From sequence record MK327931.1: DNA of 64,000 bases; one strand, given 5' to 3'. Origin of the DNA: Escherichia phage vB_EcoM_G17. The notes beneath the pieces are model-generated. The model did no database searches, was not told the DNA's origin, and worked only from the letters and a program-made list of their open reading frames with translations. Positions 1 to 19,764 of this stretch are shown here, one piece after another; position 1 is the first letter of the stretch, and each line of letters starts with the position of its first letter. The position numbers were made by a program, and so were the translations under genes.

Positions 1-152
1 AGGTTACCCGCCCTTTAGCCCCCTACGCATTTTGCCATAGTCCAATCCCTTTTATTTCAAAAAAGTCAAGGGATTACCTATGCATTTTTTTAACGCATAA
101 TTTTAAAAACGCCTTGACTTTTTTCTGAATCAGTACTAGATCCCTTTACGCA

Positions 153-362
153 TTAATCCTTCGTTACGCTAACGATTATCTGTGTATCCCCGTAGTCCTG
201 CCATACTTCCACGCCATCGGTCGCCCTGGTTAGTCGTGCTGTCATCTGCTTAATGGTCTTAGGCTTTAGTGGAACCTGTTGCAGTACTGTACGCATAGCA
301 TCATTGACGTTATCATGTACGCCTGCAATAGTACCTAGAACGCTGTATACTGTATAGAACAT
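153..362 (-). CDS. hypothetical protein (69 aa)
   Basis: Track ORF; ATG at 362 preceded by SD AGGAGGG with 8 nt spacer on minus strand. Confidence 0.55.
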   Translation of the reverse strand: MFYTVYSVLGTIAGVHDNVNDAMRTVLQQVPLKPKTIKQMTARLTRATDGVEVWQDYGDTQIIVSVTKD

Positions 363-430
363 ATGTATGCCCTCCTGATATAGTTAAGGCCGCTACAAGG
401 CGGCCTATGATGTTTGGTGATGTGTAACGC

Positions 431-832
431 TTACAGTCCTAAGATAGTGCGTGCTTCGTTACGTTCCGTACACAGCTGCATGATGTGAGCAAGTAAGTCC
501 TTGCTAATGTATCCGGTGTTCATAGCTTCACGAATAGATACATCATACGCACCGAACCCCGTGCGAACGATACGCACATCATTCAGGTTAGTATTATAGA
601 TACCGCCGAGATCAACGGCTTCGAATACTACATCAACAGAATATTCATTGTTGCCATCGTGGAAGTTTTCCAGTGCAATAGTATTGGATACCGCCCAACG
701 TTTGCAGTTTCCAATGATGCGGCACTGTTCCGGTTGGATAGTACCATTACTTACAGCGTACTCCAGTGCATCTTTACCAAAAGTCCGAGCCAGTACTAAA
801 ACGTCAGCGAAGGAATTGATTGAGAAGGTCAT
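431..832 (-). CDS. hypothetical protein (133 aa)
   Basis: Track ORF 431..865 trimmed to internal ATG at 832, which has AAGGAG SD; upstream consensus promoter plus hairpin. Confidence 0.6.
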   Translation of the reverse strand: MTFSINSFADVLVLARTFGKDALEYAVSNGTIQPEQCRIIGNCKRWAVSNTIALENFHDGNNEYSVDVVFEAVDLGGIYNTNLNDVRIVRTGFGAYDVSIREAMNTGYISKDLLAHIMQLCTERNEARTILGL

Positions 833-921
833 GATAAAACTCCTTAATTTAGGAGGGAGAACCATTTCCCCCTCTCTATGTAAAACATTATACTTGATTC
901 TAAGTACTATGCAAGTACTTT

Positions 922-1254
922 TTACATTTTAATACCTGGATTCAGGTAGCGGTGAGATCCATATTCTGGATCGGTTTCGGTCCAGTACTGTAAATCGATA
1001 GTACCTTTCGCGTTAATCTTGTCTACCAGCTTATTCATCTTAGTGTATACTACGTCAGCATCGATGCGTTTAAAGCCAGTAGCTTTAGTGAAGTAGTAGT
1101 GATTTGCTTCACTATCATTAAGGATATACCGAGCACCGTTTGCAGTCTGTGCGATAATGATTGAGTATTCTACTTCCCGATCCAGACCGTCGATGAATAC
1201 AGATGAAACATTGGTACGGATGAAAGCTTTAACGATAGCGATTGAAGTACTCAT
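922..1254 (-). CDS. hypothetical protein (110 aa)
   Basis: Track ORF; SD AGGAGA 6 nt upstream; TTGACA promoter upstream. Confidence 0.6.
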   Translation of the reverse strand: MSTSIAIVKAFIRTNVSSVFIDGLDREVEYSIIIAQTANGARYILNDSEANHYYFTKATGFKRIDADVVYTKMNKLVDKINAKGTIDLQYWTETDPEYGSHRYLNPGIKM

Positions 1255-1500
1255 TTTGAATCTCCTAACTTTGTGGGCCGTCGCACCATTGCCGCCCTAC
1301 GAGATACATTATTGCAGTACTGATATACTTTGTCAATACTTTTTTTATTAATAGTTTTCACCCCACCAGCAGATAGTTACTCACCGTTATTAACTATATA
1401 TTTTAGATACACTCCTGCACCCAGTGGGCTAGTTTTTGTCTATGCGTATATAATAGCAAAGGGACTGACCGGAGTCAATCCCTTTTTTTATTCTTTTTTG

Positions 1501-1701
1501 TTAGATGATTCTCCAATCTTCTACGATCATGGTAAGATAACGGACCATCGATTCAAGTGATTCGAATTCCCGATAGTCTGCCGCTCCACCAGCGGTACAA
1601 GTACAGCCGATTAAACCATTTTGTAATTCCTTAATCTGTACATCGATAAGGTTGGCTTTAGCTTCTTTCAGTACTTCAACCAGGGCGATAGCGATAGACA
1701 T
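1501..1701 (-). CDS. hypothetical protein (66 aa)
   Basis: Track ORF; GGAG SD; promoter/hairpin module upstream. Confidence 0.55.
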   Translation of the reverse strand: MSIAIALVEVLKEAKANLIDVQIKELQNGLIGCTCTAGGAADYREFESLESMVRYLTMIVEDWRII

Positions 1702-1790
1702 AATGTTTTACTCCAAACTATTGACGGGAGAACTATTCCCCCGCTCTATGTAAAACATTATACATTACTGGTTAGTACTGTCAAATAGTT

Positions 1791-2048
1791 TTATGAAATA
1801 TCTTCGATGTAGTCGGCCCATTTCATTTTTTCAGTACTGTCAATGGCTACCGGATTATTTGGATCAAACCATTCACCATTCCCGCAATACATACCCACGG
1901 CAACGGTTTTATATCCATCCTGTGCAGTACTCCACGACATAGCACGATAGATATGGCCTTTAACTGGTTGCAATACTGGTAATGTTTTATGGTCTTCTAC
2001 GTAGGCCATAGCTTGAGGATTTACCCGATATTGTGTGAACTGTTCCAT
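1791..2048 (-). CDS. hypothetical protein (85 aa)
   Basis: Track ORF in early-gene series. Confidence 0.55.
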   Translation of the reverse strand: MEQFTQYRVNPQAMAYVEDHKTLPVLQPVKGHIYRAMSWSTAQDGYKTVAVGMYCGNGEWFDPNNPVAIDSTEKMKWADYIEDIS

Positions 2049-2124
2049 TATGTTTCCCCTTGTAGTTAGTAAAGTTATTACATCAGTACTATCAAGCTAT
2101 GTCAATAGTACTGAAATAAAACTT

Positions 2125-2349
2125 TTAGATTAGATTATTGATGCCGTTGATGGTAGACTCGCTTTCTTCTTTCTCCCATTGGCGGTAGTACTTCCATGCT
2201 TCATGATATGTGGCGATTAGTTCATCTTTTTGATCCTGAGTACATGCCAGTACTGAATCACGGTGAGCGGTTTTATAGATAGAATCGAATGATTTCTTCT
2301 CTTCTGCCAGGTTAGCTACTTCCCGCATCAGTTCATCAAAGTTAGCCAT
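2125..2349 (-). CDS. hypothetical protein (74 aa)
   Basis: Track ORF; promoter/hairpin module upstream (2350-2440). Confidence 0.55.
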   Translation of the reverse strand: MANFDELMREVANLAEEKKSFDSIYKTAHRDSVLACTQDQKDELIATYHEAWKYYRQWEKEESESTINGINNLI

Positions 2350-2416
2350 TTTATTACTCCTTTTAGTGGGGGAGGATATCTCCCCCTATGCAAAACATTA
2401 TACTTTGTTTTAGTTA

Positions 2417-2680
2417 TTATGCAAGTACTTTTTTCATATAAAGATTATATTCTACACCGCCGTAACCTTCTACGATGATATGTTTTGCGTTATCACGTTT
2501 GCACATAGTGAAACCGTTGTTGATGTGTTCTGCATTTTCCAGGGCGACATCACCGATAGCGGCACATACGGCACTAATAACAGTATTCCGCAAAGTACTG
2601 GTATCATTAGCGGTCATAGTAGTTTGCAGTACTACGTTGTCGTATACGTGTGCATTGATAGTGATTTCGATAGTGTTCAT
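2417..2680 (-). CDS. hypothetical protein (87 aa)
   Basis: Track ORF; SD AGGAGA; promoter TTGCAT-N16-TATAAT upstream. Confidence 0.6.
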   Translation of the reverse strand: MNTIEITINAHVYDNVVLQTTMTANDTSTLRNTVISAVCAAIGDVALENAEHINNGFTMCKRDNAKHIIVEGYGGVEYNLYMKKVLA

Positions 2681-2698
2681 GGTGTATCTCCTGGACTG

Positions 2699-2759
2699 GC
2701 GGGAGAACTATTCCCCCGCTCTATGTAAAACATTATACGTTAATCTAACTACAATGCAA
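2699..2759 (-). promoter_or_regulatory. sigma70-type promoter (-35 TTGCAT at 2754-2759 rc, -10 TATAAT at 2732-2737 rc) plus 5'UTR hairpin (2699-2719)
   Basis: Read directly: rc of atgcaa and attata with 16 nt spacer; imperfect inverted repeat GCGGGAGAA/TTCCCCCGC between -10 and RBS. Confidence 0.6.
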
Positions 2760-2766
2760 GTACTTT

Positions 2767-2958
2767 TTAAATTTTATTTCCGATATAGTCCGGTCTATTC
2801 TTTTCGGTCATACGCTTTGCTAATGTTTGCATATGGCTTATTGCGTTTAATGTGTCTTCCTCCAGGGATGAATCAACATAATCAGGATCATTCTTCACCT
2901 TGCAATGATTATGATAGCGTAGTACTGCCAGTACTTTTTTAACTTCTTCTACTGTCAT
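2767..2958 (-). CDS. hypothetical protein (63 aa)
   Basis: Track ORF; start overlaps stop of next gene (ATGA). Confidence 0.5.
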   Translation of the reverse strand: MTVEEVKKVLAVLRYHNHCKVKNDPDYVDSSLEEDTLNAISHMQTLAKRMTEKNRPDYIGNKI

Positions 2959-3227
2959 AATAAGTACCCCACTTCGTTAGCTTTCAGGTTAGTATCAATC
3001 ATCAGTGGATTTTTGTAGTTCACAAAACGATTAGTTTTCTCGATAGCGAATCCCATATAATCCAGCTTACTAACAGTACATTCATTCTTAAAAACTTCTT
3101 TCGCTGCATCGATGGCTGATTGCATGGATAACCGACCATCTAAATTAATGTTTCCAAATGATCCACCAGCAGAAGTAGGATTACCGTTCATATCTTTAAT
3201 GATCATAGTAGCGGAGTAGCTGGACAT
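2955..3227 (-). CDS. hypothetical protein (90 aa)
   Basis: Track ORF; promoter/hairpin upstream. Confidence 0.55.
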   Translation of the reverse strand: MSSYSATMIIKDMNGNPTSAGGSFGNINLDGRLSMQSAIDAAKEVFKNECTVSKLDYMGFAIEKTNRFVNYKNPLMIDTNLKANEVGYLL

Positions 3228-3314
3228 AATTTTGTTTCCTTTTAGTATCGGGGAGAACTATTCTCCCCTTGATGTAAACTATTATACAGTACTGATATAC
3301 TTTGTCAAATACTT

Positions 3315-3722
3315 TTATTCGCCCATATAGATTAAGTTATCATCGCCTACATAGGGATCGCAAACGTTGATTTCTTCGCAGTACTTCGTGAATACATCGC
3401 CATAGTGACCTAAACCACGATCCCAAAAACCAGTTCCGTGACCTTCGCGGGTAAGGAACAGATCATGACCAGCTTGCTCATAACCGTAATCAATAAACAT
3501 ACCGCGAACTACTTCCAGATCATTACCGTGTTTCTCAATGAAGCGAGAACATGCAATCACCGCCGCTTGACGTGCTTCATCAGATAACTCATAATCTTCC
3601 AGGTAATCGCCGTTATCATTATGTACAGTACTGAATTGCATAGCTTCAATGTAAGCTACAACCATTGCAGCATGATTTTTATCGTTAGTGATGTTCCGAG
3701 CGAGATTAGTAGTAGTAGACAT
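3315..3722 (-). CDS. hypothetical protein (135 aa)
   Basis: Track ORF; promoter/hairpin upstream. Confidence 0.6.
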   Translation of the reverse strand: MSTTTNLARNITNDKNHAAMVVAYIEAMQFSTVHNDNGDYLEDYELSDEARQAAVIACSRFIEKHGNDLEVVRGMFIDYGYEQAGHDLFLTREGHGTGFWDRGLGHYGDVFTKYCEEINVCDPYVGDDNLIYMGE

Positions 3723-3805
3723 GATTTTATTCCTTATTGTATTGGGGAGAACTATTCTCCCCTTGATGTAAACTATTATACAGTACTGATATACTTTGTC
3801 AATAC

Positions 3806-4027
3806 TTAATTACGTTTAAAATGATATGTGCCTTTATCATCCTGTACGCCCCACACTGATTTACCATCAACACCAGTGAAACCGGATTGTAATTCAATAT
3901 GGAAACCATTATTATCAACTACAAAAACTTTTTTATTTTCATCCCGATAACATTGATATTCTGAATCAACATTAAAGGCCGCATCATTCAGAAGATTGGA
4001 AGCGTAAATGCAAGTCATTGTAGTCAT
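3806..4027 (-). CDS. hypothetical protein (73 aa)
   Basis: Track ORF 3806..4102 trimmed to ATG at 4027 (MTTMTC) with AAGGA SD; the longer form would start inside the hairpin/promoter. Confidence 0.55.
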   Translation of the reverse strand: MTTMTCIYASNLLNDAAFNVDSEYQCYRDENKKVFVVDNNGFHIELQSGFTGVDGKSVWGVQDDKGTYHFKRN

Positions 4028-4248
4028 GATTTTATTCCTTATTACCAGGGAGAACCATTTCCCCCTCTCTATGTAAAACATTATACTTGATTCTAAGTAC
4101 AATGCAAGTACTTTTTATCAAATAGTTTTCAGTACTGAATACTTATATAATAGATACACTTCCGCACCCTATGGGTCAGTGAGTTATCTCTCAATGAATA
4201 TATAATAGCAAAGGGACTGACCGGAGTCAATCCCTTTTTTAATCTTTT

Positions 4249-4833
4249 TTATCGTGTTACCTTACTTGCTTCTACATCACGCTTTTTATAGTACTGATTC
4301 CAGATATTGCGGGTTAAACCGTAATCAAGTACTTTAATAAGGCCATTACGATCCTGGCCGATATTCTGTTTTCTGATATCTCTTATCGTTAGTGTTGATA
4401 ATGTATCATCAACGTGTTGTAGTGCATCAGCAAAGCGGTGCTGGCGTTCAATGGCATTACGTTTAATATTGTACTTTAATTCATTGCACGCGTTTACGTG
4501 CTTTACACTGCCTTTACTTGCAGTACTCAACCGATCCATAACGATAAACATATTATCAGGATCGCATAAATGCATATGCACCTTTGCAAAGTACTGTTTC
4601 AATTGAGGGCGGTCATAATCTAAAAAATTCCATACCTTACATTCAGTTTCATTTTGTTCTACACCCGCATCACAATTCGCGACCTTGATCACTAACCGAT
4701 CATTTAAAGCGAATACAATACGGGAAGAACCCGCACCGATGATCTCCAGACCAGCTAACCGACAAGCTGAAAGGATCTCTTTGTTGGTTTCCATTTCTGA
4801 CAGGGTACGGATGAATTTAGTATAATTACGCAT
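4249..4833 (-). CDS. minimal protein-kinase-like protein (about 194 aa)
   Basis: Motifs in translation: glycine loop IGAGSSRIVF, VIKVA lysine, catalytic-loop-like RDIRKQNIG, DFG-like IKVLDYG; start trimmed to ATG 4833 with AAGGAGA SD. Confidence 0.55.
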   Translation of the reverse strand: MRNYTKFIRTLSEMETNKEILSACRLAGLEIIGAGSSRIVFALNDRLVIKVANCDAGVEQNETECKVWNFLDYDRPQLKQYFAKVHMHLCDPDNMFIVMDRLSTASKGSVKHVNACNELKYNIKRNAIERQHRFADALQHVDDTLSTLTIRDIRKQNIGQDRNGLIKVLDYGLTRNIWNQYYKKRDVEASKVTR

Positions 4834-4864
4834 TGCATGTTCTCCTTGAGTTAATGAAACTATC

Positions 4865-5107
4865 TTACAGTACTTTACTATCAATGGCAACTACTTTTTT
4901 AACATTAACGGCGTGGATCACCTCCTTAGTGTTTTTAGTACTGAATACTTTCGCCGCCCCATTCACGACCGTGATACGATAGCGACCATTAACATCAACC
5001 ATATTAATAAAGTCCGGCGTGCTGAATGGTGTTGTTTTACATTTGAGTACTGTTAACAATTCCACCAGCGATGTAGTTTCTTTGATACGTTTTTCTAAAG
5101 TAATCAT
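4865..5107 (-). CDS. hypothetical protein (80 aa)
   Basis: Track ORF; GGGGA SD; upstream region nearly identical to that of 5166..5384. Confidence 0.55.
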   Translation of the reverse strand: MITLEKRIKETTSLVELLTVLKCKTTPFSTPDFINMVDVNGRYRITVVNGAAKVFSTKNTKEVIHAVNVKKVVAIDSKVL

Positions 5108-5165
5108 TTTGTTTTTCCCCGTGTTGGTATGTACATATAGTACTAAAACATTTGAGTACTGTCAA

Positions 5166-5384
5166 TTAGATAATATTATATTTCTTAAAATAAAATGCGT
5201 CCTGTGTTGGTTGATACTCAATGCCATTGCCGTTATTGACTTCAACTAATAAACCTTTGTCAATAAGTTTTTTAATAGTACGATACCCTTGTTGAAAATT
5301 GGTAAAATGTGAATCATTACGAAAGGTATAACCGTGCTTAACTGCTTCATCAATAGTTTTCTTTTCGATTTTAGATAATTTCAT
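5166..5384 (-). CDS. hypothetical protein (72 aa)
   Basis: Track ORF 5166..5441 trimmed to ATG 5384 (MKLSKIEKK) with GGGAGA SD. Confidence 0.5.
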   Translation of the reverse strand: MKLSKIEKKTIDEAVKHGYTFRNDSHFTNFQQGYRTIKKLIDKGLLVEVNNGNGIEYQPTQDAFYFKKYNII

Positions 5385-5437
5385 TTTGTTTCTCCCGTGT
5401 TGGTATATGTACATAGTACTAAAACATTTGAGTACTG

Positions 5438-5692
5438 TCAACGTGATATTAGTTTTATTTTCTTATTATATTGTTGGTGTTCATATAGGTTTATCTTTCC
5501 TGTGTTCTCAATTACTATTCTGTTGTTAGTGTCCACATCGATTACACGCAGTTTCCCGTTGCTTAACTTCCTTGGTAATAGGTTACCATTAATAAACTCA
5601 TTAGCAAGCTGTACGGCCTTTGTGATGATTCTCTTCGGTGCTTTATAGTGTACCCGTAAGATGTTATCTTTATATAGTTGAACCTTAATCAT
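5438..5692 (-). CDS. hypothetical protein (84 aa)
   Basis: Track ORF; hairpin GGCGGGA-N5-TCCCGCC plus T-run just upstream. Confidence 0.5.
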   Translation of the reverse strand: MIKVQLYKDNILRVHYKAPKRIITKAVQLANEFINGNLLPRKLSNGKLRVIDVDTNNRIVIENTGKINLYEHQQYNKKIKLISR

Positions 5693-5753
5693 TTTGTTTG
5701 TCCTATAAAAAAGGCGGGAACTGATCCCGCCGTGTTGTTAGTACTGCAAGTTA

Positions 5754-6149: not shown

Positions 6150-6244
6150 GGTATACATCCTATTAGTTGAGATAGTACTACAAGTTAGAGTCTATTATAA
6201 AGTACTATCTGGGCAATGTCAAATAGTACTTTAAATGGATTCTA

Positions 6245-13455: not shown

Positions 13456-13669
13456 CTTTAAATCCTCAGTTAGTTAAGGTGTCTCGCCTTGATGTAATTA
13501 ATTATACGCTAATCTCTTAATCGTGCAAGTACTTTTTATTACTTTTTGCAAAATACTTTAAACGCTCTCAATCGCATTCTAACGACCTTAACTCCACCAG
13601 CTAGGGCGATGTATCAGATAATCAGTTTAATGCGTTAGGCGGTGCTAGTGGACTGGAATACTATAGACA

Positions 13670-13697
13670 CAAAAAAGCCCACTGTTTAAGGTGGGCT
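13670..13697 (-). terminator. Rho-independent terminator (AGCCCAC-N8-GTGGGCT plus T-run on minus strand)
   Basis: Perfect 7 bp inverted repeat followed by run of T on minus strand, immediately downstream of gene 13719..14201. Confidence 0.6.
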
Positions 13698-13718
13698 AGT
13701 GATTCAGTACTTTAATTT

Positions 13719-14201
13719 TTATGCTTCAACTTTGCGATGAGCTTCGATCCATTCCTCGCGAGTCATACCGCTTTCTTTGATAGCGTCCAGTACTACCGCA
13801 ATGCAGTTACCGCGTACAGGAATCAAATGTTCTTCCCCGTTATCAAGTACTACCGCTACACGTTCCTGAATCCATTTTTTAGGCTTAGATTCCGGCTTAT
13901 CTTCACCATACTTAACCGCCAGGGCTTTATGTGCCATTTCCACAACCACTTCCAGATCCAATCCAGACACTGCCGCCTGAATACTTTCAATTGTTGCTTG
14001 TAGTTCTGCTTCACGGGCTTTTTTCTGTTCTTCCAGTTCTGCTACCTTTTTGGCTTGCAGTTCTTTCGCAGTACTGTACGCAATGTTAAAATTGTTGCGT
14101 ACCGCTTTCATGGTATCGCTATCCAGTTCAGCCAGGATTTCTGCCGCTACGTTAGTTTCATTTGCTACCAGTGCTTTGATGAATGATTTTACATTAGCCA
14201 T
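13719..14201 (-). CDS. hypothetical protein (160 aa)
   Basis: Track ORF 13719..14216 trimmed to ATG 14201 (MANVKSF) with GAGGA SD. Confidence 0.6.
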   Translation of the reverse strand: MANVKSFIKALVANETNVAAEILAELDSDTMKAVRNNFNIAYSTAKELQAKKVAELEEQKKAREAELQATIESIQAAVSGLDLEVVVEMAHKALAVKYGEDKPESKPKKWIQERVAVVLDNGEEHLIPVRGNCIAVVLDAIKESGMTREEWIEAHRKVEA

Positions 14202-14400
14202 TTTATAAATCCTCAATTAAAGTTTAGTTTACGTTAGATAGTGTATCAAAGTTTTCTCGACGTGTCCAGTTTTTCGTTCGACTTACTGGCGGTCTACTTA
14301 GTGCTCCCCGTCTTGATGTAATACATTCTACGCTTTTCTGTGGTAATGTCAACTACTTTTTTAAAACTATTTTTAAAGTATCTCAGTACTACGATACTAC

Positions 14401-14433
14401 AAAAACAAAAAAGCCCACTGTTTAAGGTGGGCT
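14401..14433 (-). terminator. Rho-independent terminator, second copy of AGCCCAC/GTGGGCT hairpin
   Basis: Same hairpin as 13670..13697 followed by T-run on minus strand, after gene 14451..14750. Confidence 0.6.
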
Positions 14434-14450
14434 AGTGATTCAGTACTAGA

Positions 14451-14750
14451 TTATAAACAGTTAATTACTCCGGTGTGCGTTACTTTCTCAGTATCCATAA
14501 CCGTGACCGATCCACGCTTAGTACTGGCATCATAATAAATTGTGGTGCTACCGTTTTCGTCTTCTTCATGGAACGGGCCGTTTTTAAATGCTTCCGGCTG
14601 GATCTCTAAATCCTTTAATACAATCTCGCCAGTTCTTTCATCGGTCATTGCAACAGTGCACTGAATGAATTTTTCATTACTTACATCTAATGACGCATTA
14701 ACAGCGAAAGAGGAAACAGATAAAGCCAGGGCGATGATTGCAATTTTCAT
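14451..14750 (-). CDS. hypothetical secreted protein (N-terminal signal peptide)
   Basis: N-terminus MKIAIIALALSVSSFAVNAS is signal-peptide-like. Confidence 0.55.
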   Translation of the reverse strand: MKIAIIALALSVSSFAVNASLDVSNEKFIQCTVAMTDERTGEIVLKDLEIQPEAFKNGPFHEEDENGSTTIYYDASTKRGSVTVMDTEKVTHTGVINCL

Positions 14751-14834
14751 TTGATTATCCTTAGTTACCAGGGGGAACCGCTCCCCCTTGCTATGTAAAA
14801 TATTATACAGTACTAAAAACTAATTGCAAGTACT

Positions 14835-15071
14835 TTATGATTTTTTATAAAACATTTCGGCAGTGATATTTTTACCCGTTGGCTGTACTTTATCCAGAAT
14901 TTTTTGATGCCCTGGCCGTCCAAATGAATATGATCCGTAAACCGTAAACCAGTAGTTACCCTCAGTGTTTACATGTACAGCACAATAGGGAACGCCCCGC
15001 GATTCATCACTAGTAAAGTGTGCTACCGTTCCCGTTACATTCGAAGTCGTTGATTTGATTTGTTCAAGCAT
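14835..15071 (-). CDS. hypothetical protein (78 aa)
   Basis: Track ORF. Confidence 0.55.
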   Translation of the reverse strand: MLEQIKSTTSNVTGTVAHFTSDESRGVPYCAVHVNTEGNYWFTVYGSYSFGRPGHQKILDKVQPTGKNITAEMFYKKS

Positions 15072-15313
15072 TTTCTTATTCCTTAGTTACCAGGGGAACC
15101 GCTCCCCTATGCAAAACATTATACGCGTTTAAAAACTAATAGCAAGTATTTTAATAAAAAGTATTTGGAAAATAATTGTTGACAAGTGCATCCAGTACTG
15201 GCATAATTACTACATCAAGACGAAACAGTCACTAACCCACCGGGTGCATAGATCCGTCTATTAAATGATTCAGTACTGAAAAAGTAACGGGGAGTTATTA
15301 TCTCCCCGCGTTG

Positions 15314-15535
15314 TTATTTTGTAAGGTATAAACAGAAGTCACCTTTATTTGCTACGCCGCCAGTGTAACGCGATGAATAGTTAGAAATATCTTGTACTTC
15401 TGCTATTACCAGTGTATCATCATTCATTTCGTCGCAGAAGCAAACGGCTGGATCTTTTACGCCGATATTGTCGGCATGTTCCCGCATAGATTTAACCAGT
15501 GCTTCCAGTTGAGAAAGAGTAGTGATATTAGCCAT
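15314..15535 (-). CDS. hypothetical protein (73 aa)
   Basis: Track ORF 15314..15565 trimmed to MANITTL (GAGGA SD). Confidence 0.55.
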   Translation of the reverse strand: MANITTLSQLEALVKSMREHADNIGVKDPAVCFCDEMNDDTLVIAEVQDISNYSSRYTGGVANKGDFCLYLTK

Positions 15536-15621
15536 TGTATTTTCCTCATTACCAGGGAGAACCATTTCTCCCCTCTATGTAAACTATTATACAGTACTGA
15601 AAACTAATTGCAAGTACTTTT

Positions 15622-15825
15622 TTAATTTAATTGCTTTAAAACATACTCAAAGACACCACGCACATCATTGATCATCGCCTGGCGGTTAGCAGGTAACGCA
15701 TCAGGATCGCCACTATCCCAGGCATTGATAAAACTCCCCAAATCATGATAGATTTTATTCTGTAAGCCGATTAACTGTAATTCTTTTTCTTCAAGCTCTT
15801 TGATGCGGTCGATTAAATCACTCAT
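15622..15825 (-). CDS. hypothetical protein (67 aa)
   Basis: Track ORF 15622..15861 trimmed to MSDLIDR (GAGGA SD). Confidence 0.5.
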   Translation of the reverse strand: MSDLIDRIKELEEKELQLIGLQNKIYHDLGSFINAWDSGDPDALPANRQAMINDVRGVFEYVLKQLN

Positions 15826-15842
15826 TAGATAATCCTCAGTAC

Positions 15843-16127
15843 TTAACTGTAAGATCCGCAACGGTCGCAGTAGTGCCCGTCCTCGTCATCGTCAACGAAT
15901 TGACCGACGAAATGATCTACTTTCGCTTTCAGGTTATTATAATCGTTTTCTACTTCATTTAAACGCTTCTGGTAGTATTCCAGTGCTTTAAGATATGCCG
16001 CATCAGCAGTTTTCTCCTGCATAGCTAAATTCATGCCACGCGTTTCATCGTACAGCCAAAAACCATCGGTGCACTGGCTAATAGATAATGACTTGCTTAG
16101 TACTGTATAGTTAATTACTTTACCCAT
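15843..16127 (-). CDS. hypothetical protein (94 aa)
   Basis: Track ORF; same RBS context as 15622..15825. Confidence 0.55.
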   Translation of the reverse strand: MGKVINYTVLSKSLSISQCTDGFWLYDETRGMNLAMQEKTADAAYLKALEYYQKRLNEVENDYNNLKAKVDHFVGQFVDDDEDGHYCDRCGSYS

Positions 16128-16219
16128 TAGATAATCCTCAGTAAAGGCGGGAACTATTCCCCGCCTCGATATAAAGTATTATACGTTAATCTAACTACAA
16201 TGCAAGTACTTTTTAAATT

Positions 16220-16486
16220 TTATAATCCTTTTACTGCATCAGGTGCGACTACTCCATCAATGTATTGAACATCGTTTTCAACTTCACGGGCGGCATCATT
16301 CAGCAGATCAAAATTAAATTCCATTTCTTCCAGATCATCGAAATCAGGCTCATAACCATTAATTGTTGAATAAGTCCAAGTACCTTTTTCATAAGTTACG
16401 ACACTTACATCAGGGAAGAAATCTTGCACATGATCCATCGCATCCCGAACCAATTGATGTGCAGTTGTGATATTTAAAGTTTTCAT
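16220..16486 (-). CDS. hypothetical protein (88 aa)
   Basis: Track ORF. Confidence 0.55.
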   Translation of the reverse strand: MKTLNITTAHQLVRDAMDHVQDFFPDVSVVTYEKGTWTYSTINGYEPDFDDLEEMEFNFDLLNDAAREVENDVQYIDGVVAPDAVKGL

Positions 16487-16579
16487 TTTGTTGCCCTTTT
16501 AGTGTGAGCGGGGAACCACTCCCCGCCTCGATGTAAAGTATTATACGCTTTTAAACTTAGTTTGCAAGTACTTTTTAAA

Positions 16580-17191
16580 TTAATATGCGATTGATTCTAC
16601 TACGTCATCAATAACATTGAATTGATATTCGTTACCCTCAATCAGTGCCGTAATGTTTTCAGTAGTGAATTGATCCTCATATGCATTCTCTAAATCACGG
16701 TACAACTTGCGGGATAATTCACGAATAGTTTCAGTGAGTAGTTCCTCAAGCTCATTAACTAACGTTTCTTGTTTTGCGGTTAAATCAGTGTAAGCCGATT
16801 CAATGTACCCGCTTACAGTATTCTCATGCGAGTAGTGGGAGTGAGAACGCTTTACACTCATCGCCAAATCATCTTCATTCAGCAGGTGACGGATTGAGCG
16901 ATACTTAGTTAATGCTCTTACCTTGCGTAAAAACTTCACTGCGTCAACGTGGTCAGTACTGATTGATGCACCGTCACCCTGGGACCAAAAACCACTGAAT
17001 TGTATTTCAGCTTCATTAATGCCATATTCCGGTAGTACTGTTTCTTTATAGTATTCAATTTCACTTTCAGAAAAATAATTGTCGTTTGAGTTTTTTTCAC
17101 GTTCCCGAACCAGTTCGATAGCTGACGTTTTTTGTTCTGCGTTCAATTCAGAAAAATCCATAACGAAAGTAGTAGTAGTGATAGTTTTCAT
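16580..17191 (-). CDS. hypothetical protein (203 aa)
   Basis: Track ORF; tandem promoters and structured leader upstream (17200-17400). Confidence 0.65.
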   Translation of the reverse strand: MKTITTTTFVMDFSELNAEQKTSAIELVREREKNSNDNYFSESEIEYYKETVLPEYGINEAEIQFSGFWSQGDGASISTDHVDAVKFLRKVRALTKYRSIRHLLNEDDLAMSVKRSHSHYSHENTVSGYIESAYTDLTAKQETLVNELEELLTETIRELSRKLYRDLENAYEDQFTTENITALIEGNEYQFNVIDDVVESIAY

Positions 17192-17617
17192 TTTGTAACC
17201 CTCATTCAGTAGTTGATGTAAGTATTATACGCTTTTAAAAACATTTGTCAAACTATTTTATCAGGGGAGTTTTTCGTGTGCCTTACTCCTGGGCTACTTA
17301 ACGGGAAGTTACTTATTTCGTTCCCCGTCCTGATGTAAAACATTATACGCCTTTAAACATAGTTTGCAAGTACTTTTTAAAAATAGTTTTCAGTACTGAA
17401 TATTTAAAAAAGTATTGACAGCATTATCAAGTACTGGCATAATATACCCCATGACAACAGCTAACCCACCGGGTGCACAATTGTAACTATACTAAACTAC
17501 TTTTTCTATAGATACACTCCCGCACCCTATGGGCTACGGCTTATCTGCCAATGAATACATTATGCCAGTACTGACAAAATAAGTCAATACCGGCAATTGT
17601 AAAGATTTGTAAACTGC

Positions 17618-17848
17618 TTATACTGCAATCGCGTCCAGGCTATAATAATAATAAGTGCCGTATTGGTGTACTTTATTACCTTTTATTTCAGTACTGAATG
17701 AATCCGAACGGTTTGCATATGATGTTAATTTAAAGTACTTTGATTTGCTGATACGTTGCCATACACCGCAGATCCGCTGTAAGTAAGTAGTTTTATTCGT
17801 GGTAGTATCTTTTACAGTTTTAACTTCAGTCATATACATATTAGTCAT
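17618..17848 (-). CDS. hypothetical protein (76 aa)
   Basis: Track ORF; GGAG SD. Confidence 0.5.
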   Translation of the reverse strand: MTNMYMTEVKTVKDTTTNKTTYLQRICGVWQRISKSKYFKLTSYANRSDSFSTEIKGNKVHQYGTYYYYSLDAIAV

Positions 17849-17935
17849 TTTTATTACTCCAGGTTATAGGCGGGAAGAGTTCCCGCTCTCGATGTAAAAC
17901 ATTATACGCCATTAAACATAGTTTGCAAGTACTTT

Positions 17936-18202
17936 TTATTCAAGTACTGCAATCTTTTTAGTACGGTACACGGTCACGCGGTTGCCCTTTCGGTCGAGCT
18001 TTATTTCTACCACTCGACGCGATACACTATCAGGACTTTTCAACGCCGCTAACCAGTACTGTAATGATCTGGCGGTACTACGCTTTATAATGGCCCAACG
18101 TTTACCACGTTCCGATTGTACGCCCATATCTTTAAACGTTGCCCCGTCCTGGCGTGCGGCGATCCGAGCTTGTTCACGCGTCGCAAAATACTTAATATTC
18201 AT
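17936..18202 (-). CDS. hypothetical protein, paralog of 5754..6149
   Basis: Shares KYFATREQARIAARQDGATFKDMG and DRKGNRVTV motifs with 5754..6149; start trimmed to MNIKYF. Confidence 0.55.
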   Translation of the reverse strand: MNIKYFATREQARIAARQDGATFKDMGVQSERGKRWAIIKRSTARSLQYWLAALKSPDSVSRRVVEIKLDRKGNRVTVYRTKKIAVLE

Positions 18203-18287
18203 GCTGTTGCCCTTATCGTTGGTGTATGAATAAAACACTATTATAAAGTACTATCGCAAAAAATGATAGTACTTTAAATAAATTCTA

Positions 18288-18527
18288 TTACATTCCAACC
18301 ATTGCAGCACGGATCGCAGTAGTGCTATATTTGAATCCGTCCGGCGTTTTATCTTGTCCAGTCTGTTCTAAAAATAACATCATATGACGGGCCGCATCAT
18401 TACGATTAGTATTGGCGGCAATAAAGTCCTGGGCCAACCGGTATAATGATTCATCGTTATTAATCCAAAGGCTTACATTCCAATGAGTTTTGTTTTTGTG
18501 ACCTAAGAACATTTTTGATTTAGCCAT
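18288..18527 (-). CDS. hypothetical protein (79 aa)
   Basis: Track ORF 18288..18566 trimmed to MAKSKMF. Confidence 0.5.
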   Translation of the reverse strand: MAKSKMFLGHKNKTHWNVSLWINNDESLYRLAQDFIAANTNRNDAARHMMLFLEQTGQDKTPDGFKYSTTAIRAAMVGM

Positions 18528-18620
18528 TTTTTTAATCCTCTTATATAGTGGGGAACTATTCCCCACCTGATGTAAAACATTATACGCTTTTAAACATAGT
18601 TTGCAAGTACTTTATTAAAC

Positions 18621-18983
18621 TTATTCGTAAATTTTGCCACTGTCAGCCCATACCAGGAAACGAGGCATATTATCCCATGCATCTTGTTTTAAATTTAAAC
18701 CGTGTAATACTTCTGTACTTTCCATTCCTGGTACTGGTTTACTATACACCGCGAAATTTTCGCCCATATACTGATAAACCATCGTCAAATCACTGGCGAT
18801 CATCTTATGGATCATCGCATCAAGCATCACGGTAGCGGCGTATTGTTCACGCTTAAGCGGCAACATTGTAATAAGTTCCCGATAAGCTGAAATGTGAATT
18901 TTTACCGTTTCAGCCGGAAGACCTTTCATCTCTTCACGGAAGTTGACCAGGTTAGAAATAATTTTATTGATTTGGGTCGCCAT
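18621..18983 (-). CDS. hypothetical protein (120 aa)
   Basis: Track ORF 18621..19040 trimmed to MATQINK (AAGAGA SD). Confidence 0.55.
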   Translation of the reverse strand: MATQINKIISNLVNFREEMKGLPAETVKIHISAYRELITMLPLKREQYAATVMLDAMIHKMIASDLTMVYQYMGENFAVYSKPVPGMESTEVLHGLNLKQDAWDNMPRFLVWADSGKIYE

Positions 18984-19764
18984 CGTATTAATCTCTTTTA
19001 AAGTGTAGCGGGAAGTGTTCCCGCTCTCGATGTAAAACATTATACGCCTTTAAACATAGTTTGCAAGTACTTTCTACATGTACTTTTAAAATAGTTTTCT
19101 TTCTATATAGGGGAACTATCATTCAGTACTATTATTCAGTACTGAATCAACCAAATCACTACTACACCCCATAAAACGGCCTCAGACGCATTCTAACGCA
19201 TTAATACACCTAAGCTATACATTTGCACCATTCCAATCATTCCAGGGCTTTACGGGCCGTTTAAACGCGTTAAATTATTTTCAATTATTTTGTTTTTAGC
19301 TATTGACTCAGTACAGAAAAAGCGTATAATTACTACATAGACGCGAGAAAGCGGAAACCCCAGAGGGTGCGGAATTACGCCCAAAATTCAAGATATAAAA
19401 AAAGGATACACTCCCGCACCCTAGCAGGTAAACGCACTTTCTCAGTACTGAAATATAGTACCATAGTCCGGCCCAGGATAGCAAGCAAATTAATTAAAAC
19501 TTTTTTGCTTCCAGGGTATTGCTTTATTTTTTCAGTACTGTATAATAGTTCCATCAAGTCGAGAAAGACTCAAGCCCACCGGGTGCATAGTTACGCCCAA
19601 AATTCAGTACTGAAAAAATTTTTAAAAATATCCGTCCAGGCCGTTGACATTGCCCCCAGTTTATAAGATAATGATTCCAGATTCAGAAAAATCTAACTCC
19701 AGATACTGCGGGGAAACTATCCCCACGCGGTAGGGGAACTATTGGAAAAAACAAAATAAAATTT

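What the first reader, a model, noticed from the sequence alone, without database searches (positions are those of the whole stretch)
150..19100. About 35 near-identical promoter plus 5'UTR-hairpin modules, one per small gene
Before almost every early gene the same 60-70 nt module recurs on the minus strand: -35 TTGACA/TTGCAA/TTGCAT, 16-17 nt spacer often containing CAGTACTG, -10 TATAAT, about 8 nt, then a G/C-rich inverted repeat (GGGGAGAA-cta-TTCTCCCC; variants GAGGGGAA..TTCCCCTC, GCGGGGAA..TTCCCCGC), then the Shine-Dalgarno. Copies are near + coordinates 885, 1755, 2390, 2732, 3283, 3775, 4080, 6625, 6900, 7240, 7345, 8210, 8825, 9615, 10200, 10637, 11230, 11458, 12968, 13505, 14805, 15115, 15585, 16185, 16545, 17345, 17905, 18575, 19035, and again at 48350, 58970, 62920 and 63285. 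The hairpin sits between the expected transcription start and the RBS, so it could be an RNA element (stability, RNase processing, translational control) or a DNA operator for a dimeric regulator acting on the whole regulon.
Basis: seen in the sequence. Interest (0 to 1): 0.8.

Follow-up and report, generated by a model that had tools for sequence, protein, structure and literature searches.

The report
Mobile early-promoter cassettes with RNA hairpin
A giant E. coli phage drives about 25 tiny early genes in its terminal repeat with near-identical "strong promoter, RNA hairpin, ribosome site" cassettes, which also act as crossover points for gaining, losing and swapping genes, even with unrelated phages.

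Summary
The window is Escherichia phage Sharanji (Asteriusvirus, a 350-kb RaK2-like jumbo phage).

**Observation.** It is real. TATAAT followed 8-14 nt later by a G/C-rich hairpin occurs 24 times against 0.07 expected. All copies lie on the minus strand, each before a small gene with no Pfam match. The other 8 are promoters alone or promoters with a different leader.

**What the hairpin is.**
- It starts about +5 of the predicted transcript and ends 14-23 nt before the AUG.
- Pairing is conserved but sequence is not: 18 distinct stems and 13 loops in 24 copies, with compensatory changes at 8 of 9 pairs.
- G·U pairs occur on the sense strand only.
- The hairpin is retained in 41 of 41 orthologous sites.
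- None of the 24 array copies scanned has a U-tract.

This supports an RNA-level 5'-UTR element. It argues against a DNA operator and against an intrinsic terminator.

**Context.** The array maps onto the annotated ~21.5-kb direct terminal repeat of a close relative. Gene gains and losses between relatives break at the cassettes. A 514-bp piece is 93% identical in an unrelated phi92-like phage.

**Closest known.** PeSL cassettes of T4-type phages. This is a new variant; the hairpin's molecular role (stabiliser or insulator) remains inferred.

The parts
830..914 (-). Module m892. -35 TTGCAT at 914, -10 at 892-887, hairpin 874-853 (GAGGGGGAA-augg-UUCUCCCUC), true ATG at 832.
   Evidence: the GenBank start at 865 is the AUG in the hairpin loop
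1699..1784 (-). Module m1762. Hairpin 1744-1724 (GCGGGGGAA-uag-UUCUCCCGU, with a G.U pair), ATG at 1701 (gp055).
2347..2424 (-). Module m2402. Hairpin 2386-2368 (GGGGGAG-auauc-CUCCCCC), ATG at 2349 (gp057).
2678..2759 (-). Module m2737. Hairpin 2719-2699, ATG at 2680 (gp058). This cassette is absent from 121Q.
3225..3308 (-). Module m3286. Hairpin 3268-3250 (GGGGAGAA-uag-UUCUCCCC), ATG at 3227 (gp060).
3720..3802 (-). Module m3780, identical to m3286. Hairpin 3762-3744, ATG at 3722 (gp061). The gp061 cassette between the two identical modules is missing in 121Q.
4025..4107 (-). Module m4085. Hairpin 4066-4047, ATG at 4027 (gp062).
6566..6652 (-). Module m6630. Hairpin 6610-6592 (GAGGGGAA-ugg-UUCCCCUC), ATG at 6568 (gp068).
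6836..6923 (-). Module m6901, near-identical to m6630. Hairpin 6881-6862, true ATG at 6838 (gp069, annotated from GTG 6883).
8154..8233 (-). Module m8211. Hairpin 8193-8174, ATG at 8156 (gp074).
8777..8854 (-). Module m8831. -35 TTGACA at 8854, 17-nt spacer, -10 TATAGT at 8831-8826, hairpin 8815-8797 (AGGGGAA-acauc-UUCCCCU), ATG at 8779 (gp076).
10147..10229 (-). Module m10207. Hairpin 10189-10170, ATG at 10149 (gp081).
10584..10665 (-). Module m10643. Hairpin 10624-10606 (AGGGGAAA-cgg-UUUCCCCU), ATG at 10586 (gp082).
11171..11254 (-). Module m11232. Hairpin 11215-11192, ATG at 11173, followed by an unannotated 50-aa ORF.
11402..11483 (-). Module m11461. Hairpin 11443-11424, ATG at 11404 (gp083).
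12917..12996 (-). Module m12974. Hairpin 12956-12937, ATG at 12919, followed by an unannotated 47-aa ORF.
14748..14829 (-). Module m14807. Hairpin 14788-14770, ATG at 14750 (gp091).
15069..15145 (-). Module m15123. Hairpin 15109-15091, ATG at 15071 (gp092). This cassette is absent from 121Q.
15533..15613 (-). Module m15591. Hairpin 15573-15554, true ATG at 15535 (gp093, annotated from the loop AUG at 15565).
16125..16205 (-). Module m16183. Hairpin 16167-16144 (10 bp), ATG at 16127 (gp095).
16484..16567 (-). Module m16545. Hairpin 16527-16507, ATG at 16486 (gp096). This cassette is replaced by another gene in 121Q and in vB_Ec-M-J.
17846..17928 (-). Module m17906. Hairpin 17886-17870 (GCGGGAA-cuc-UUCCCGC, with a C-G pair), ATG at 17848 (gp098).
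18525..18606 (-). Module m18584. Hairpin 18567-18547 (GGUGGGGAA-uag-UUCCCCACU, with a U-A pair), ATG at 18527 (gp100).
18981..19066 (-). Module m19044, the first module inward from the inferred genome end. Hairpin 19025-19007, true ATG at 18983 (gp101, annotated from TATAATG at 19040).
48301..48378 (-). The only module outside the array. -10 at 48356, hairpin 48341-48321 (GGGGAUGA-acuuc-UCAUCCCU), ATG at 48303, 184-aa ORF.
1..20668 (-). The stretch that aligns with the annotated direct terminal repeat (1-21525) of the close relative vB_Ec-M-J. The inferred left genome end falls at about window 20668, and genes are transcribed inward from it.
   Evidence: the homologous region of Klebsiella phage Muenster also lies in a PhageTerm-predicted terminal repeat
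7202..7263 (-). Example of the hairpin-less class: consensus promoter (-10 at 7241), the same AUCAA start, a 27-nt UTR, then gp070. Others are at 9614, 9885, 12733, 13271, 17229, 6199, 58974, 62935 and 63284.

Best explanation
These are self-contained early-expression cassettes, one per small gene of unknown function. They fill the region that corresponds to the direct terminal repeat of this RaK2-like jumbo phage, the likely host-takeover region.

Each cassette has three parts: a near-consensus host sigma-70 promoter with an A-rich upstream stretch, a transcribed stem-loop and a Shine-Dalgarno sequence. Transcription most likely starts at the A of the conserved CAT, 8 nt after TATAAT. The mRNA therefore begins AUCAA or AUAGA, forms a 7-10 bp G-rich hairpin at about +6 to +26, and reaches the AUG 14-23 nt after the stem (5' UTR about 44 nt).

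The hairpin works as RNA and through its structure, not its sequence. My best guess is that it is a generic stabiliser and insulator. With the ribosome bound just downstream, it leaves almost no naked 5' UTR for RNase E. It keeps the AU-rich upstream RNA from pairing with the ribosome-binding site. On read-through transcripts it can also cap the 3' end of the upstream message after processing.

Independently of that role, the roughly 85-bp repeated cassette is the homology at which recombination deletes, inserts and replaces whole genes. This happens within the genus and between unrelated coliphage families, as proposed for the PeSL cassettes of T4-type phages.

Shown here: the repeat, its geometry, selection on pairing, the sense-strand bias, the absence of U-tracts, and breakpoints at the cassettes. 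Inferred: the +1 position, the terminal-repeat status in Sharanji itself, early timing, and the stabiliser or insulator role.
For: Identity and context:
- The window is 100% identical to Escherichia phage Sharanji, an Asteriusvirus.
- Window 20668..1 aligns with the annotated terminal repeat 1-21525 of vB_Ec-M-J.
- The first 16 kb of the Sharanji record (window minus-strand downstream of the array) is packed overlapping genes with no modules and no model hits.

Non-randomness: 24 observed against 0.07 expected.

Geometry:
- The -10 to stem distance is 12 nt (8-14), and the stem to ATG distance is 14-23 nt.
- The predicted 5' UTR is 34-50 nt.

RNA-level structure:
- There are 18 distinct stems and 13 distinct loops in 24 copies. 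Pair types are GC 113, AU 59, GU 17, UG 1, CG 6 and UA 2, with no A.C mismatch.
- In the gap-free alignment, 92.3% of cells pair against 69.3% in shuffles. Eight of 9 pairs show double changes, and slid-partner controls give 49-64%. With 30 distinct sequences from 4 phages the figures are 90.4% against 73.3%.
- The sense strand is more stable in 20 of 25 copies, at -13.4 against -12.1 kcal/mol, p = 4e-4.
- The covariance model scores sense copies at 20-37 bits and antisense copies at no more than 19.6 bits.

Conservation of presence, not sequence:
- All 41 orthologous gene upstream regions in 121Q and vB_Ec-M-J keep a hairpin, and 39 of them fold at -9.4 kcal/mol or better. Several have a different stem despite 95-100% identical coding starts.
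- The same architecture, with unrelated stems, occurs in Klebsiella phage Muenster (Alcyoneusvirus, in its terminal repeat) and in phi92-like phage muut.

Not a terminator: none of the 24 array hairpins is followed by a T-run, and canonical terminators exist nearby.

Cassette recombination:
- Twenty of 26 synteny breakpoints against 121Q lie within -70 to +40 nt of a promoter -10. Both flanks of an indel align onto a single module in the other genome, for example at gp058, gp061, gp069 and gp092. The same is seen against vB_Ec-M-J.
- A 514-bp segment (window 7358-6850) is 93% identical in muut. It starts in one promoter and ends just past the next module's hairpin.

Cargo: ten module-driven proteins have no Pfam match.
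Against: - No transcription start has been mapped for this phage or any relative found in the held literature.
- With the predicted +1, the 5' single-stranded leader is 1-6 nt, most often 5. To my knowledge, classical 5'-terminal stabilisers need no more than about 2-4 unpaired nt (own knowledge: Emory, Bouvet and Belasco 1992).
[quoted passage not shown] A pure anti-RNase E role is therefore not secure.
- Predicted accessibility of the Shine-Dalgarno sequence is only modestly higher with the hairpin than in hairpin-less promoters (0.62 against 0.50, small samples).
- About 16 promoters in the same array do without the hairpin, so it is not essential for early expression.
- The copies are paralogues that exchange sequence, so covariation counts are not independent events.
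- The terminal-repeat status of Sharanji rests on homology, not on sequencing reads.
Confidence: 0.6

Rival explanations
1. PeSL-type terminator or attenuator. The stem-loop stops or damps transcription arriving from the upstream cassettes, so that each gene is expressed mainly from its own promoter.
For: In RB49 and phi1 the PeSL stem-loop, often a G-tract followed by a C-tract, reduced lacZ expression about as much as rrnB T1. It was interpreted as a terminator or attenuator (PMC2839356). Promoters here are closely spaced and read through one another, with few canonical terminators in the array.
Against: None of the 24 array hairpins has a downstream T-run. This phage uses canonical hairpin-plus-T-run terminators elsewhere in the same region. 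The hairpin lies downstream of its own promoter's start, so an efficient terminator would also abort the cassette's own transcript at about +27.
Confidence: 0.1
2. A handle for a phage-encoded RNA-binding factor, such as a structure-specific nuclease, translational repressor or protector. The factor would switch the whole early class off or on, or mark phage mRNAs as self during host mRNA destruction.
For: The element is restricted to one temporal and positional class of genes, and is absent from the adjacent operon-like block. All stems share a G-run at the base and most close with GAA...UUC. T4 has early-mRNA-specific post-transcriptional shut-off systems, RegB and RegA (own knowledge; review PMC3014915 listed, not read).
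Against: Loops vary in length (3-6 nt) and in sequence (13 variants). Stems differ completely between genera. This argues against sequence-specific recognition. No candidate protein was identified.
Confidence: 0.12
3. A DNA operator. The inverted repeat binds a dimeric phage or host regulator that controls all these promoters together.
For: A perfect or near-perfect inverted repeat sits at a fixed distance downstream of about 25 co-oriented promoters, a classical position for a repressor roadblock.
Against: There are 18 different half-site sequences in 24 copies. Half-site spacing varies from 3 to 6 bp. Substitutions are compensatory rather than conserved. G.U pairs make the repeat imperfect as DNA but intact as sense RNA. 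Stems are unrelated in Muenster and muut.
Confidence: 0.04
4. No function of its own. The palindrome is a passenger that spread with the promoter cassette by duplication and gene conversion, or is a small selfish palindromic insert.
For: The copies are clearly related by descent and exchange. Hairpin-less promoters have the same leader, as if the roughly 20-nt palindrome were an insertion between AUCAA and ACUA. Promoterless intergenic hairpins exist at 406-387 and 11999-11980, and in muut at about 15853-15879.
Against: A neutral palindrome should decay. Instead pairing is kept in 41 of 41 orthologous sites while the sequence turns over. Mismatches are exclusively of the RNA-tolerated G.U type. 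The same layout recurs with unrelated stems in three genera.
Confidence: 0.1

Closest known systems
PeSLs (promoter-early stem-loop cassettes) of T4-type phages RB49/phi1, T4/PST and KVP40/nt-1 (Arbiol et al. 2010, PMC2839356; Comeau et al. 2014, PMC4122927)
   Same: Both are roughly 100-bp intergenic motifs made of an AT-rich stretch, a consensus sigma-70 early promoter, a stable G/C-tract stem-loop, a Shine-Dalgarno sequence and ATG. Both are repeated before small ORFan genes in a hyperplastic early region. In both, indels and replacements between close relatives have their junctions in the motifs, and a role in horizontal transfer is proposed.
   Different: Here the stem-loop has one fixed position, downstream of the start site in the 5' UTR. 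PeSL stem-loops sit in five positions, mostly within or upstream of the promoter. The hairpin here lacks terminator features and shows RNA-type covariation. The host lineage is RaK2-like jumbo phages, with similar cassettes in a phi92-like phage, not T4-like phages. The array fills a direct terminal repeat. This window also holds a second, more PeSL-typical class: a terminator hairpin overlapping the -35, AAAGGGATTGACTCCGGTCAGTCCCTTT, at 7506, 4237, 1485 and 10794.
5'-terminal mRNA-stabilising stem-loops (E. coli ompA 5' UTR; the T7 phi10 leader GGGAGACCACAACGGUUUCCC; synthetic 5' hairpins). Own knowledge: Emory et al. 1992; Carrier and Keasling 1999.
   Same: A short stable hairpin with a G-rich 5' arm near the 5' end of an mRNA, followed by an unstructured A-rich spacer and a strong Shine-Dalgarno sequence. 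The effect depends on structure, not sequence.
   Different: The predicted 5' overhang here is mostly 5 nt, at or beyond the limit reported for protection. No half-life data exist. The element is mass-produced as part of a repeated cassette.
Host-takeover modules in phage terminal repeats (SPO1 terminal redundancy, T5 pre-early region; own knowledge). Also the RpoD-like promoters with UP elements before short early ORFs in the RaK2-like phage CBB (PMC5259590).
   Same: Many small genes of unknown function, each with its own very strong host-type promoter and ribosome-binding site, located in or next to the terminal repeat.
   Different: No conserved promoter-proximal hairpin has been reported for those systems in the papers read here.
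Promoter-proximal RNA hairpins that act on RNA polymerase (lambda nut boxB, HK022 put; own knowledge)
   Same: An RNA stem-loop transcribed just downstream of early promoters.
   Different: Those elements have conserved loop or stem sequences and occur once or twice per genome. Here the loops are not conserved and there is one hairpin per gene.

Membership tests
PeSL cassettes (T4-type phages) | Consensus sigma-70-type early promoter with an AT-rich upstream region | tested here: met
   There are 10 perfect 12/12 and many 10-11/12 promoters on the minus strand in 20 kb, preceded by AAAAAGTAC. This is a sequence match only; promoter activity was not tested.
PeSL cassettes (T4-type phages) | A stable stem-loop, often a G-tract followed by a C-tract, within the same intergenic motif, which ends in a Shine-Dalgarno sequence and the start codon | tested here: met
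   Stems are 7-10 bp at -10.6 to -16.7 kcal/mol, and the start codon lies 14-23 nt after the stem.
PeSL cassettes (T4-type phages) | Concentrated in hyperplastic regions, flanking small ORFan genes | tested here: met
   There are 24 cassettes in 19 kb before genes of 47-135 aa. Ten of 10 tested proteins have no Pfam match. Gene content differs between Sharanji, 121Q and vB_Ec-M-J.
PeSL cassettes (T4-type phages) | Junctions of insertions, deletions and replacements between close relatives fall in the motifs (recombination between motifs) | tested here: met
   Twenty of 26 breakpoints against 121Q lie within -70 to +40 nt of a -10. Indel flanks overlap on one module by 45-100 nt. The same holds against vB_Ec-M-J. 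The segment shared with muut is bounded by modules. Caveat: the intergenic DNA here is almost entirely module.
PeSL cassettes (T4-type phages) | The stem-loop acts as a terminator or attenuator of upstream transcription ('promoter-terminator motif') | tested here: not met
   By sequence criteria only: none of the 24 array hairpins has a T-run, and the hairpin is downstream of its own start site. Function was not measured.
PeSL cassettes (T4-type phages) | Excision as mini-circles by recombination between flanking motifs | not testable with these tools
   This needs inverse PCR on infected cells or virion DNA.
5'-terminal stabiliser stem-loop (ompA type) | The hairpin is transcribed and lies in the 5' UTR | tested here: met
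   The stem begins 12 nt after the -10, which is about +5 for a start at the 7th-8th nt. This is inferred from sigma-70 geometry; the start site was not mapped.
5'-terminal stabiliser stem-loop (ompA type) | No more than about 2-4 unpaired nucleotides at the 5' end | tested here: inconclusive
   The predicted overhang is 1-6 nt. It is 5 nt in 11 of 25 copies and 0-4 nt in 12 of 25. The result depends on the unmapped +1.
5'-terminal stabiliser stem-loop (ompA type) | Lengthens mRNA half-life in an RNase E or RppH dependent way | not testable with these tools
   This needs rifampicin-chase experiments.
Intrinsic (Rho-independent) terminator | A G/C-rich hairpin immediately followed by a U-tract | tested here: not met
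   None of the module hairpins appears in the terminator scan. Tails read ACUAA, GGUAA, CUAAC and similar.
Palindromic operator of a dimeric DNA-binding regulator | Conserved half-site sequence at fixed spacing, symmetrical on both strands | tested here: not met
   There are 18 distinct stems and spacing of 3-6 nt. Changes are compensatory. The sense-strand bias appears.
Rfam families | A match to a curated covariance model | tested here: not met
   No family matches any module in window 1-21000 at E up to 1.

The most novel reading that the evidence does not exclude
The promoter-hairpin-RBS cassette may be a portable expression unit shared by unrelated families of large coliphages (RaK2-like jumbo phages and phi92-like phages). 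It would let them trade ready-to-express host-takeover genes. Its hairpin may be a so far undescribed class-wide RNA signal, for example a mark that spares early phage mRNAs from phage-induced RNA decay or that times their shut-off, rather than a generic stabiliser.
Probability: 0.2. Interest if true: 0.7.

Novelty: new variant of a known kind. Interest (0 to 1): 0.5.

Why it matters
**For phage evolution.** Jumbo phages of the RaK2 group carry hundreds of small genes of unknown function. How these genes are acquired and expressed is largely unknown. This finding extends the PeSL idea, regulatory cassettes that double as recombination joints, beyond T4-type phages to the terminal repeat of an Asteriusvirus. 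A 93%-identical segment bounded by cassettes in a phi92-like phage shows that such units move between phage families.

**For RNA biology.** The array offers about 25 natural variants of one 5'-UTR hairpin, with a built-in control set of hairpin-less promoters. That is a ready experiment for testing what a promoter-proximal stem-loop does to mRNA life and translation during infection.

**For annotation.** Knowing the module corrects several start codons and reveals unannotated small genes.

**For engineering.** The cassettes are compact, strong, insulated E. coli expression parts.

Tried and rejected
- **MAFFT plus RNAalifold on 95-nt module windows.** The stems were put out of register because loops and leaders differ in length, and only a spurious 3-bp helix was returned. 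I replaced this with loop-centred gap-free windows (A2), a covariance model and my own loop-anchored counts.
- **Rfam scan of window 1-21000 at E up to 1.** No family matched a module.
- **Literature searches for mapped start sites or a prior description.** The Sharanji paper, the RaK2 paper, PA5oct, rV5 and CBB mention promoters at most, never the hairpin. One search was too broad and returned nothing useful.
- **Strict pattern scan of IMG/VR.** It returned only 121Q and one other contig, so it gave no extra breadth. I did not follow up the other contig (L011).
- **Purine-rich 5' arm as a strand marker.** An inverted repeat of this kind reads the same way on both strands. I therefore used G.U against A.C counts and folding energies instead.
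- **The loop AUG (AUGG or AUGA in 7 of 24 copies) as a mini-ORF or coupling device.** It has no consistent frame or stop relative to the real start, so I treated it as coincidence. It does, however, mislead gene callers.
- **Pairing of the 3' arm with the real Shine-Dalgarno sequence as a switch.** Complementarity is at most 4 nt and is not consistent between copies.
- **RNase III site.** The stems are far too short.
- **lambda boxB or HK022 put analogy.** The loops are not conserved.
- **Remaining 270 kb of the Sharanji genome.** I did not fetch it. BLAST place counts, 10-13 in records with a collapsed repeat against 21-25 in records showing both repeat copies, suggest the copies are essentially confined to the terminal repeat.

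Full report
**What the sequence is.** Window 150-8000 is 100% identical to Escherichia phage Sharanji (OR545507.1, Asteriusvirus), a 350-kb RaK2/121Q/PBECO4-type jumbo phage. Window coordinate x corresponds to record coordinate x + 15777. Every gene in 150-19100 is on the minus strand and is annotated 'hypothetical protein'. The paper describing Sharanji does not discuss promoters or hairpins.

- Reading the minus strand shows the same block before gene after gene.
- The core TATAATRNTTTRCAT gives 38 matches at up to 2 mismatches against 9.9 expected. Twenty-two matches are exact, all on the minus strand between 878 and 19044.
- TATAAT followed 8-14 nt later by a hairpin of at least 7 bp with at least 4 G-C pairs occurs 24 times. 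The mean in 100 dinucleotide-preserving shuffles is 0.07 and the maximum is 1.
- The consensus scan lists ten perfect TTGACA-16/17-TATAAT promoters and many 10-11/12 ones on the minus strand.

- Of the 33 listed sites, 25 carry promoter plus hairpin: 24 in the array and one at 48356.
- Sites 7240, 9615, 58970, 62920 and 63285 are promoters without a hairpin, and 13505 keeps only a 4-bp remnant.
- Sites 7345 and 17345 are promoters followed by a different structured leader of about 75-80 nt and then a second promoter.
- The distance from -10 to stem is 12 nt (8-14), not about 8.

**Anatomy.** Each module reads as follows:
- an A-rich stretch, then (A)AGTAC
- the -35 (TTGACA, TTGCAA or TTGCAT)
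- 16 nt, often ending CAGTACTG
- TATAAT
- (G/A)NTTT-ACAT, then 1-6 nt
- a stem of 7-10 bp (8 bp in 15 of 24 copies) with a loop of 3-6 nt
- an A-rich tail, often containing UAA
- a Shine-Dalgarno sequence and ATG

The stem ends 14-23 nt before the ATG.

By standard sigma-70 geometry the start site is the A of the conserved CAT, the 8th nt after the -10 (pyrimidine at -1, purine at +1). That gives a 5' UTR of 34-50 nt (mean 44) with 1-6 unpaired nt at the 5' end, most often 5 (AUCAA, AUAGA or AUGAA). This start site is inferred, not mapped.

Promoters that lack the hairpin start with the same AUCAA and run straight to the Shine-Dalgarno sequence (UTR 26-41 nt). The hairpin therefore looks like an optional insert of about 20 nt.

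**RNA or DNA?**
- The 24 array copies have 18 distinct stems and 13 distinct loops.
- Pair types are GC 113, AU 59, GU 17, UG 1, CG 6 and UA 2, with no A.C mismatch inside any stem. Because the 5' arm is purine and the 3' arm pyrimidine, neutral transitions would give G.U and A.C equally. Only the RNA-tolerated type is seen.
- The sense strand folds better than the antisense strand in 20 of 25 copies (mean -13.4 against -12.1 kcal/mol, Wilcoxon p = 4e-4), though the copies are not independent.
- On a gap-free loop-centred alignment of 13 copies from four phages, 92.3% of cells pair against 69.3% in shuffles. Eight of 9 pairs have changes on both sides, and sliding the partner by 1-3 columns drops pairing to 49-64%.
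- With 30 distinct sequences gathered by a covariance model the figures are 90.4% against 73.3%.
- The model scores sense copies at 20-37 bits and their antisense images at no more than 19.6 bits. It finds nothing convincing in the first 16 kb of the Sharanji record.

Variable half-site sequence, variable spacing (3-6 nt) and strand asymmetry together argue against a DNA operator for a dimeric protein.

**Terminator?** None of the 24 array hairpins is followed by a T-run. The scan does pick up canonical terminators in the same stretch: 5731, 13697, 14433, 15309 and 19422, plus the composite at 7506, 4237, 1485 and 10794. The hairpin also lies after its own promoter's start site, so an efficient terminator there would abort the cassette's own mRNA.

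**Conservation.**
- For the 24 array modules I located the orthologous genes in phage 121Q (18 present) and vB_Ec-M-J (23 present) by their coding starts, then folded the upstream 42 nt. All 41 have a hairpin, and 39 fold at -9.4 kcal/mol or better.
- Several orthologues with 95-100% identical coding starts carry a different stem. For gp058, GCGGGGGAA/UUCUCCCGC is replaced by GAGGGGGAA/UUUCCCCUC. m11232 has three different stems in three phages. There are also G.U to G-C and G.U to A-U switches.
- The same layout, with unrelated stems, precedes early genes in Klebsiella phage Muenster (Alcyoneusvirus). Examples are GGGGAUAC-auag-GGUAUCCC, GGGAAUGAA-uaa-UUCAUUCCC and AGAGAUUCCA-guac-UGGAAUCUCU.
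- It also occurs in the phi92-like phage muut (Justusliebigvirus), for example GGCGGGGAA-augg-UUUCCCGCC.

Presence and pairing are therefore maintained while the sequence turns over.

**Genomic context.**
- In vB_Ec-M-J the annotated direct terminal repeat 1-21525 aligns with window 20668..1. The alignment stops exactly at position 1 of that genome although the query continued.
- In Muenster the homologous region lies in a 20-kb terminal repeat predicted by PhageTerm.
- Records that show both repeat copies have 21-25 BLAST places for one module, against 10-13 in 350-kb records.
- The array therefore corresponds to the terminal repeat, transcribed inward from the physical end. The first module (m19044) lies about 1.6 kb from the end.
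- The first 16 kb of the Sharanji record (window minus-strand downstream of the array) is a tight block of overlapping genes without modules.
- This resembles the host-takeover modules in the terminal repeats of SPO1 and T5 (own knowledge), and the RpoD-like promoters before short early ORFs noted for the RaK2-like phage CBB (PMC5259590).
- Ten module-driven proteins have no Pfam match.

**Cassettes as recombination joints.**
- Aligning the region with 121Q gives collinear blocks interrupted by whole-gene gains, losses and replacements. Twenty of 26 block ends lie within -70 to +40 nt of a promoter -10.
- For several indels both flanks align onto one single module in the other genome, overlapping by 45-100 nt. 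gp061 lies between the identical modules m3780 and m3286. gp058 lies between m2737 and m2402, gp069 between m6901 and m6630, and gp092 between m15123 and m14807. This is the signature of homologous exchange between repeated modules.
- The comparison with vB_Ec-M-J shows the same pattern.
- Window 7358-6850 is 93.2% identical over 514 nt to phage muut, which belongs to a different subfamily. The shared piece begins in one promoter and ends just past the hairpin of the next module.
- Caveat: intergenic DNA here is almost entirely module, so enrichment alone is weak evidence. The overlapping flanks are the stronger argument.

**Comparison with what is known.**
- The closest precedent is the PeSL cassettes of T4-type phages. 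These are sigma-70 early promoter plus stem-loop motifs that flank ORFans in hyperplastic regions and mediate modular shuffling (PMC2839356, PMC4122927).
- Four PeSL features are met here: promoter, adjacent stem-loop, ORFan-rich plastic region, and junctions at the motifs.
- The terminator role is not supported by sequence. The stem-loop has a single transcribed position instead of five positions around the promoter. The lineage is different, and mini-circles cannot be tested.
- I found no paper applying the PeSL concept to RaK2-like or phi92-like phages in the held library.
- I therefore file this as a new variant of a known kind, not as a member.

**Mechanism: what is shown and what is inferred.**

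Shown:
- a repeated cassette
- a hairpin under selection for pairing in the sense transcript
- no terminator tail
- recombination junctions at the cassettes

Inferred:
- the +1 position
- early timing
- the terminal-repeat status in Sharanji itself
- the function of the hairpin

My preferred reading is a generic structural role in the 5' UTR. With a 30S subunit covering roughly -20 to +15, the hairpin and the ribosome together leave almost no naked leader. The hairpin also isolates the ribosome-binding site from AU-rich upstream RNA on read-through transcripts, and it could cap the 3' end of the upstream message after processing.

Evidence against a simple anti-RNase E stabiliser:
- the predicted 5-nt overhang
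- the published finding that RNase E readily bypasses an orthogonal stem-loop (PMC9943677)
- the 16 or so hairpin-less promoters in the same array
- promoterless hairpins 18-24 nt upstream of starts, at 406-387, at 11999-11980 and in muut at about 15853-15879, which suggest the relevant partner is the ribosome-binding site rather than the 5' end

A class-specific phage factor that recognises the structure remains possible but has no direct support.

**Verdict.** The element is a PeSL-like mobile early-expression cassette with a transcribed, structurally conserved 5'-UTR hairpin, filling the terminal repeat of a jumbo phage and shared across phage families. Interest is moderate at 0.5: the biology is coherent and extends a known concept, and the hairpin's function is open and directly testable.

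Noticed in passing
whole window, 1-64000: AGTACT is the most frequent hexamer: 282 copies against about 22 expected from base composition, and three times the next most frequent palindromic hexamer. It is spread over coding and non-coding DNA on both gene orientations, most often as CAGTACTG. It occupies two fixed places in the promoters (just upstream of the -35 and just upstream of the -10) and appears in some hairpin loops in Muenster. This suggests a genome-wide protein-binding or modification site.
   Followed up: partly
window 7346-7262 (-), 17336-17255 (-), variant after the promoter at 14330 (-); muut L003 11577-11660: A structured RNA of about 75-80 nt sits between two tandem promoters. 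It has an outer stem AUCAGG/CCUGAU enclosing two hairpins, with MFE -18.8 kcal/mol and z = -2.2. It is present 2-3 times in the array and is 86-93% conserved in the phi92-like phage muut. It has no Rfam match. It is a candidate small RNA or leader.
   Followed up: partly
window 7506-7479, 4237-4210, 1485-1458, 10794-10767 (-); also 43920, 45333, 46617, 51111, 52194, 53802, 53987, 57228 (-): A second repeated composite has a 10-13 bp hairpin whose 5' arm and loop contain a -35 TTGACT (AAAGGGATTGAC-tccg-GTCAGTCCCTTT, or GGGTTGAC-ttcg-GTCAGCCC). It is followed by T's and then a -10 (TATTAT or TATAAT). This is a terminator-promoter unit of the classical PeSL type.
   Followed up: partly
window 26181, 28575, 29813, 31035, 32246, 33507, 34316, 39083 (+): Eight or more copies of another module lie on the plus-strand gene block. 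Each has a hairpin (A)GCCAGTAC-nnn-GTACTGGC(T), a T-run, and then a conserved GTATTAAATATAGTATAATG. This looks like a terminator followed by a promoter-like box of a different class.
   Followed up: no
window 865, 6883, 15565, 19040 (annotated starts) against 832, 6838, 15535, 18983: The GenBank starts of gp053 and gp093 are the AUG in the hairpin loop. The start of gp101 is the ATG overlapping TATAATG, and gp069 starts from a GTG inside the module. The starts preceded by a Shine-Dalgarno sequence lie 30-57 nt downstream.
   Followed up: yes
window 11173-11021 (-) and 12919-12776 (-): Two unannotated small ORFs (50 and 47 aa) lie directly behind full modules m11232 and m12974, inside gaps of 671 and 319 nt in the annotation.
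   Followed up: partly
window 7358-6850 against muut MN850573.1 (L003 11576-12085): A 514-nt stretch is 93% identical between an Asteriusvirus and a Justusliebigvirus. It covers a promoter, the structured RNA, a second promoter, gp070 and the next module's hairpin. Two further genes are 67-72% identical. This indicates recent cassette transfer between phage families.
   Followed up: yes
window 19100-20668: About 1.6 kb between the first module and the inferred physical genome end has no annotated gene. It carries plus-strand consensus promoters at 19325 and 19541 with G/C-rich short hairpins downstream. The GC skew changes sign near 20000.
   Followed up: no
Sharanji record 1-15900 (L002), window minus-strand downstream of the array: Fifty-one small genes are packed with overlapping stops and starts and have no modules. 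This is a sharp switch from one promoter per gene to operon-style organisation at about the terminal-repeat boundary.
   Followed up: partly
window 406-387 (-) and 11999-11980 (-); muut L003 about 15853-15879: Promoterless intergenic hairpins without T-runs lie 18-24 nt upstream of start codons (gp052, gp085 and a muut gene). They occupy the same position relative to the ribosome-binding site as the module hairpins.
   Followed up: partly
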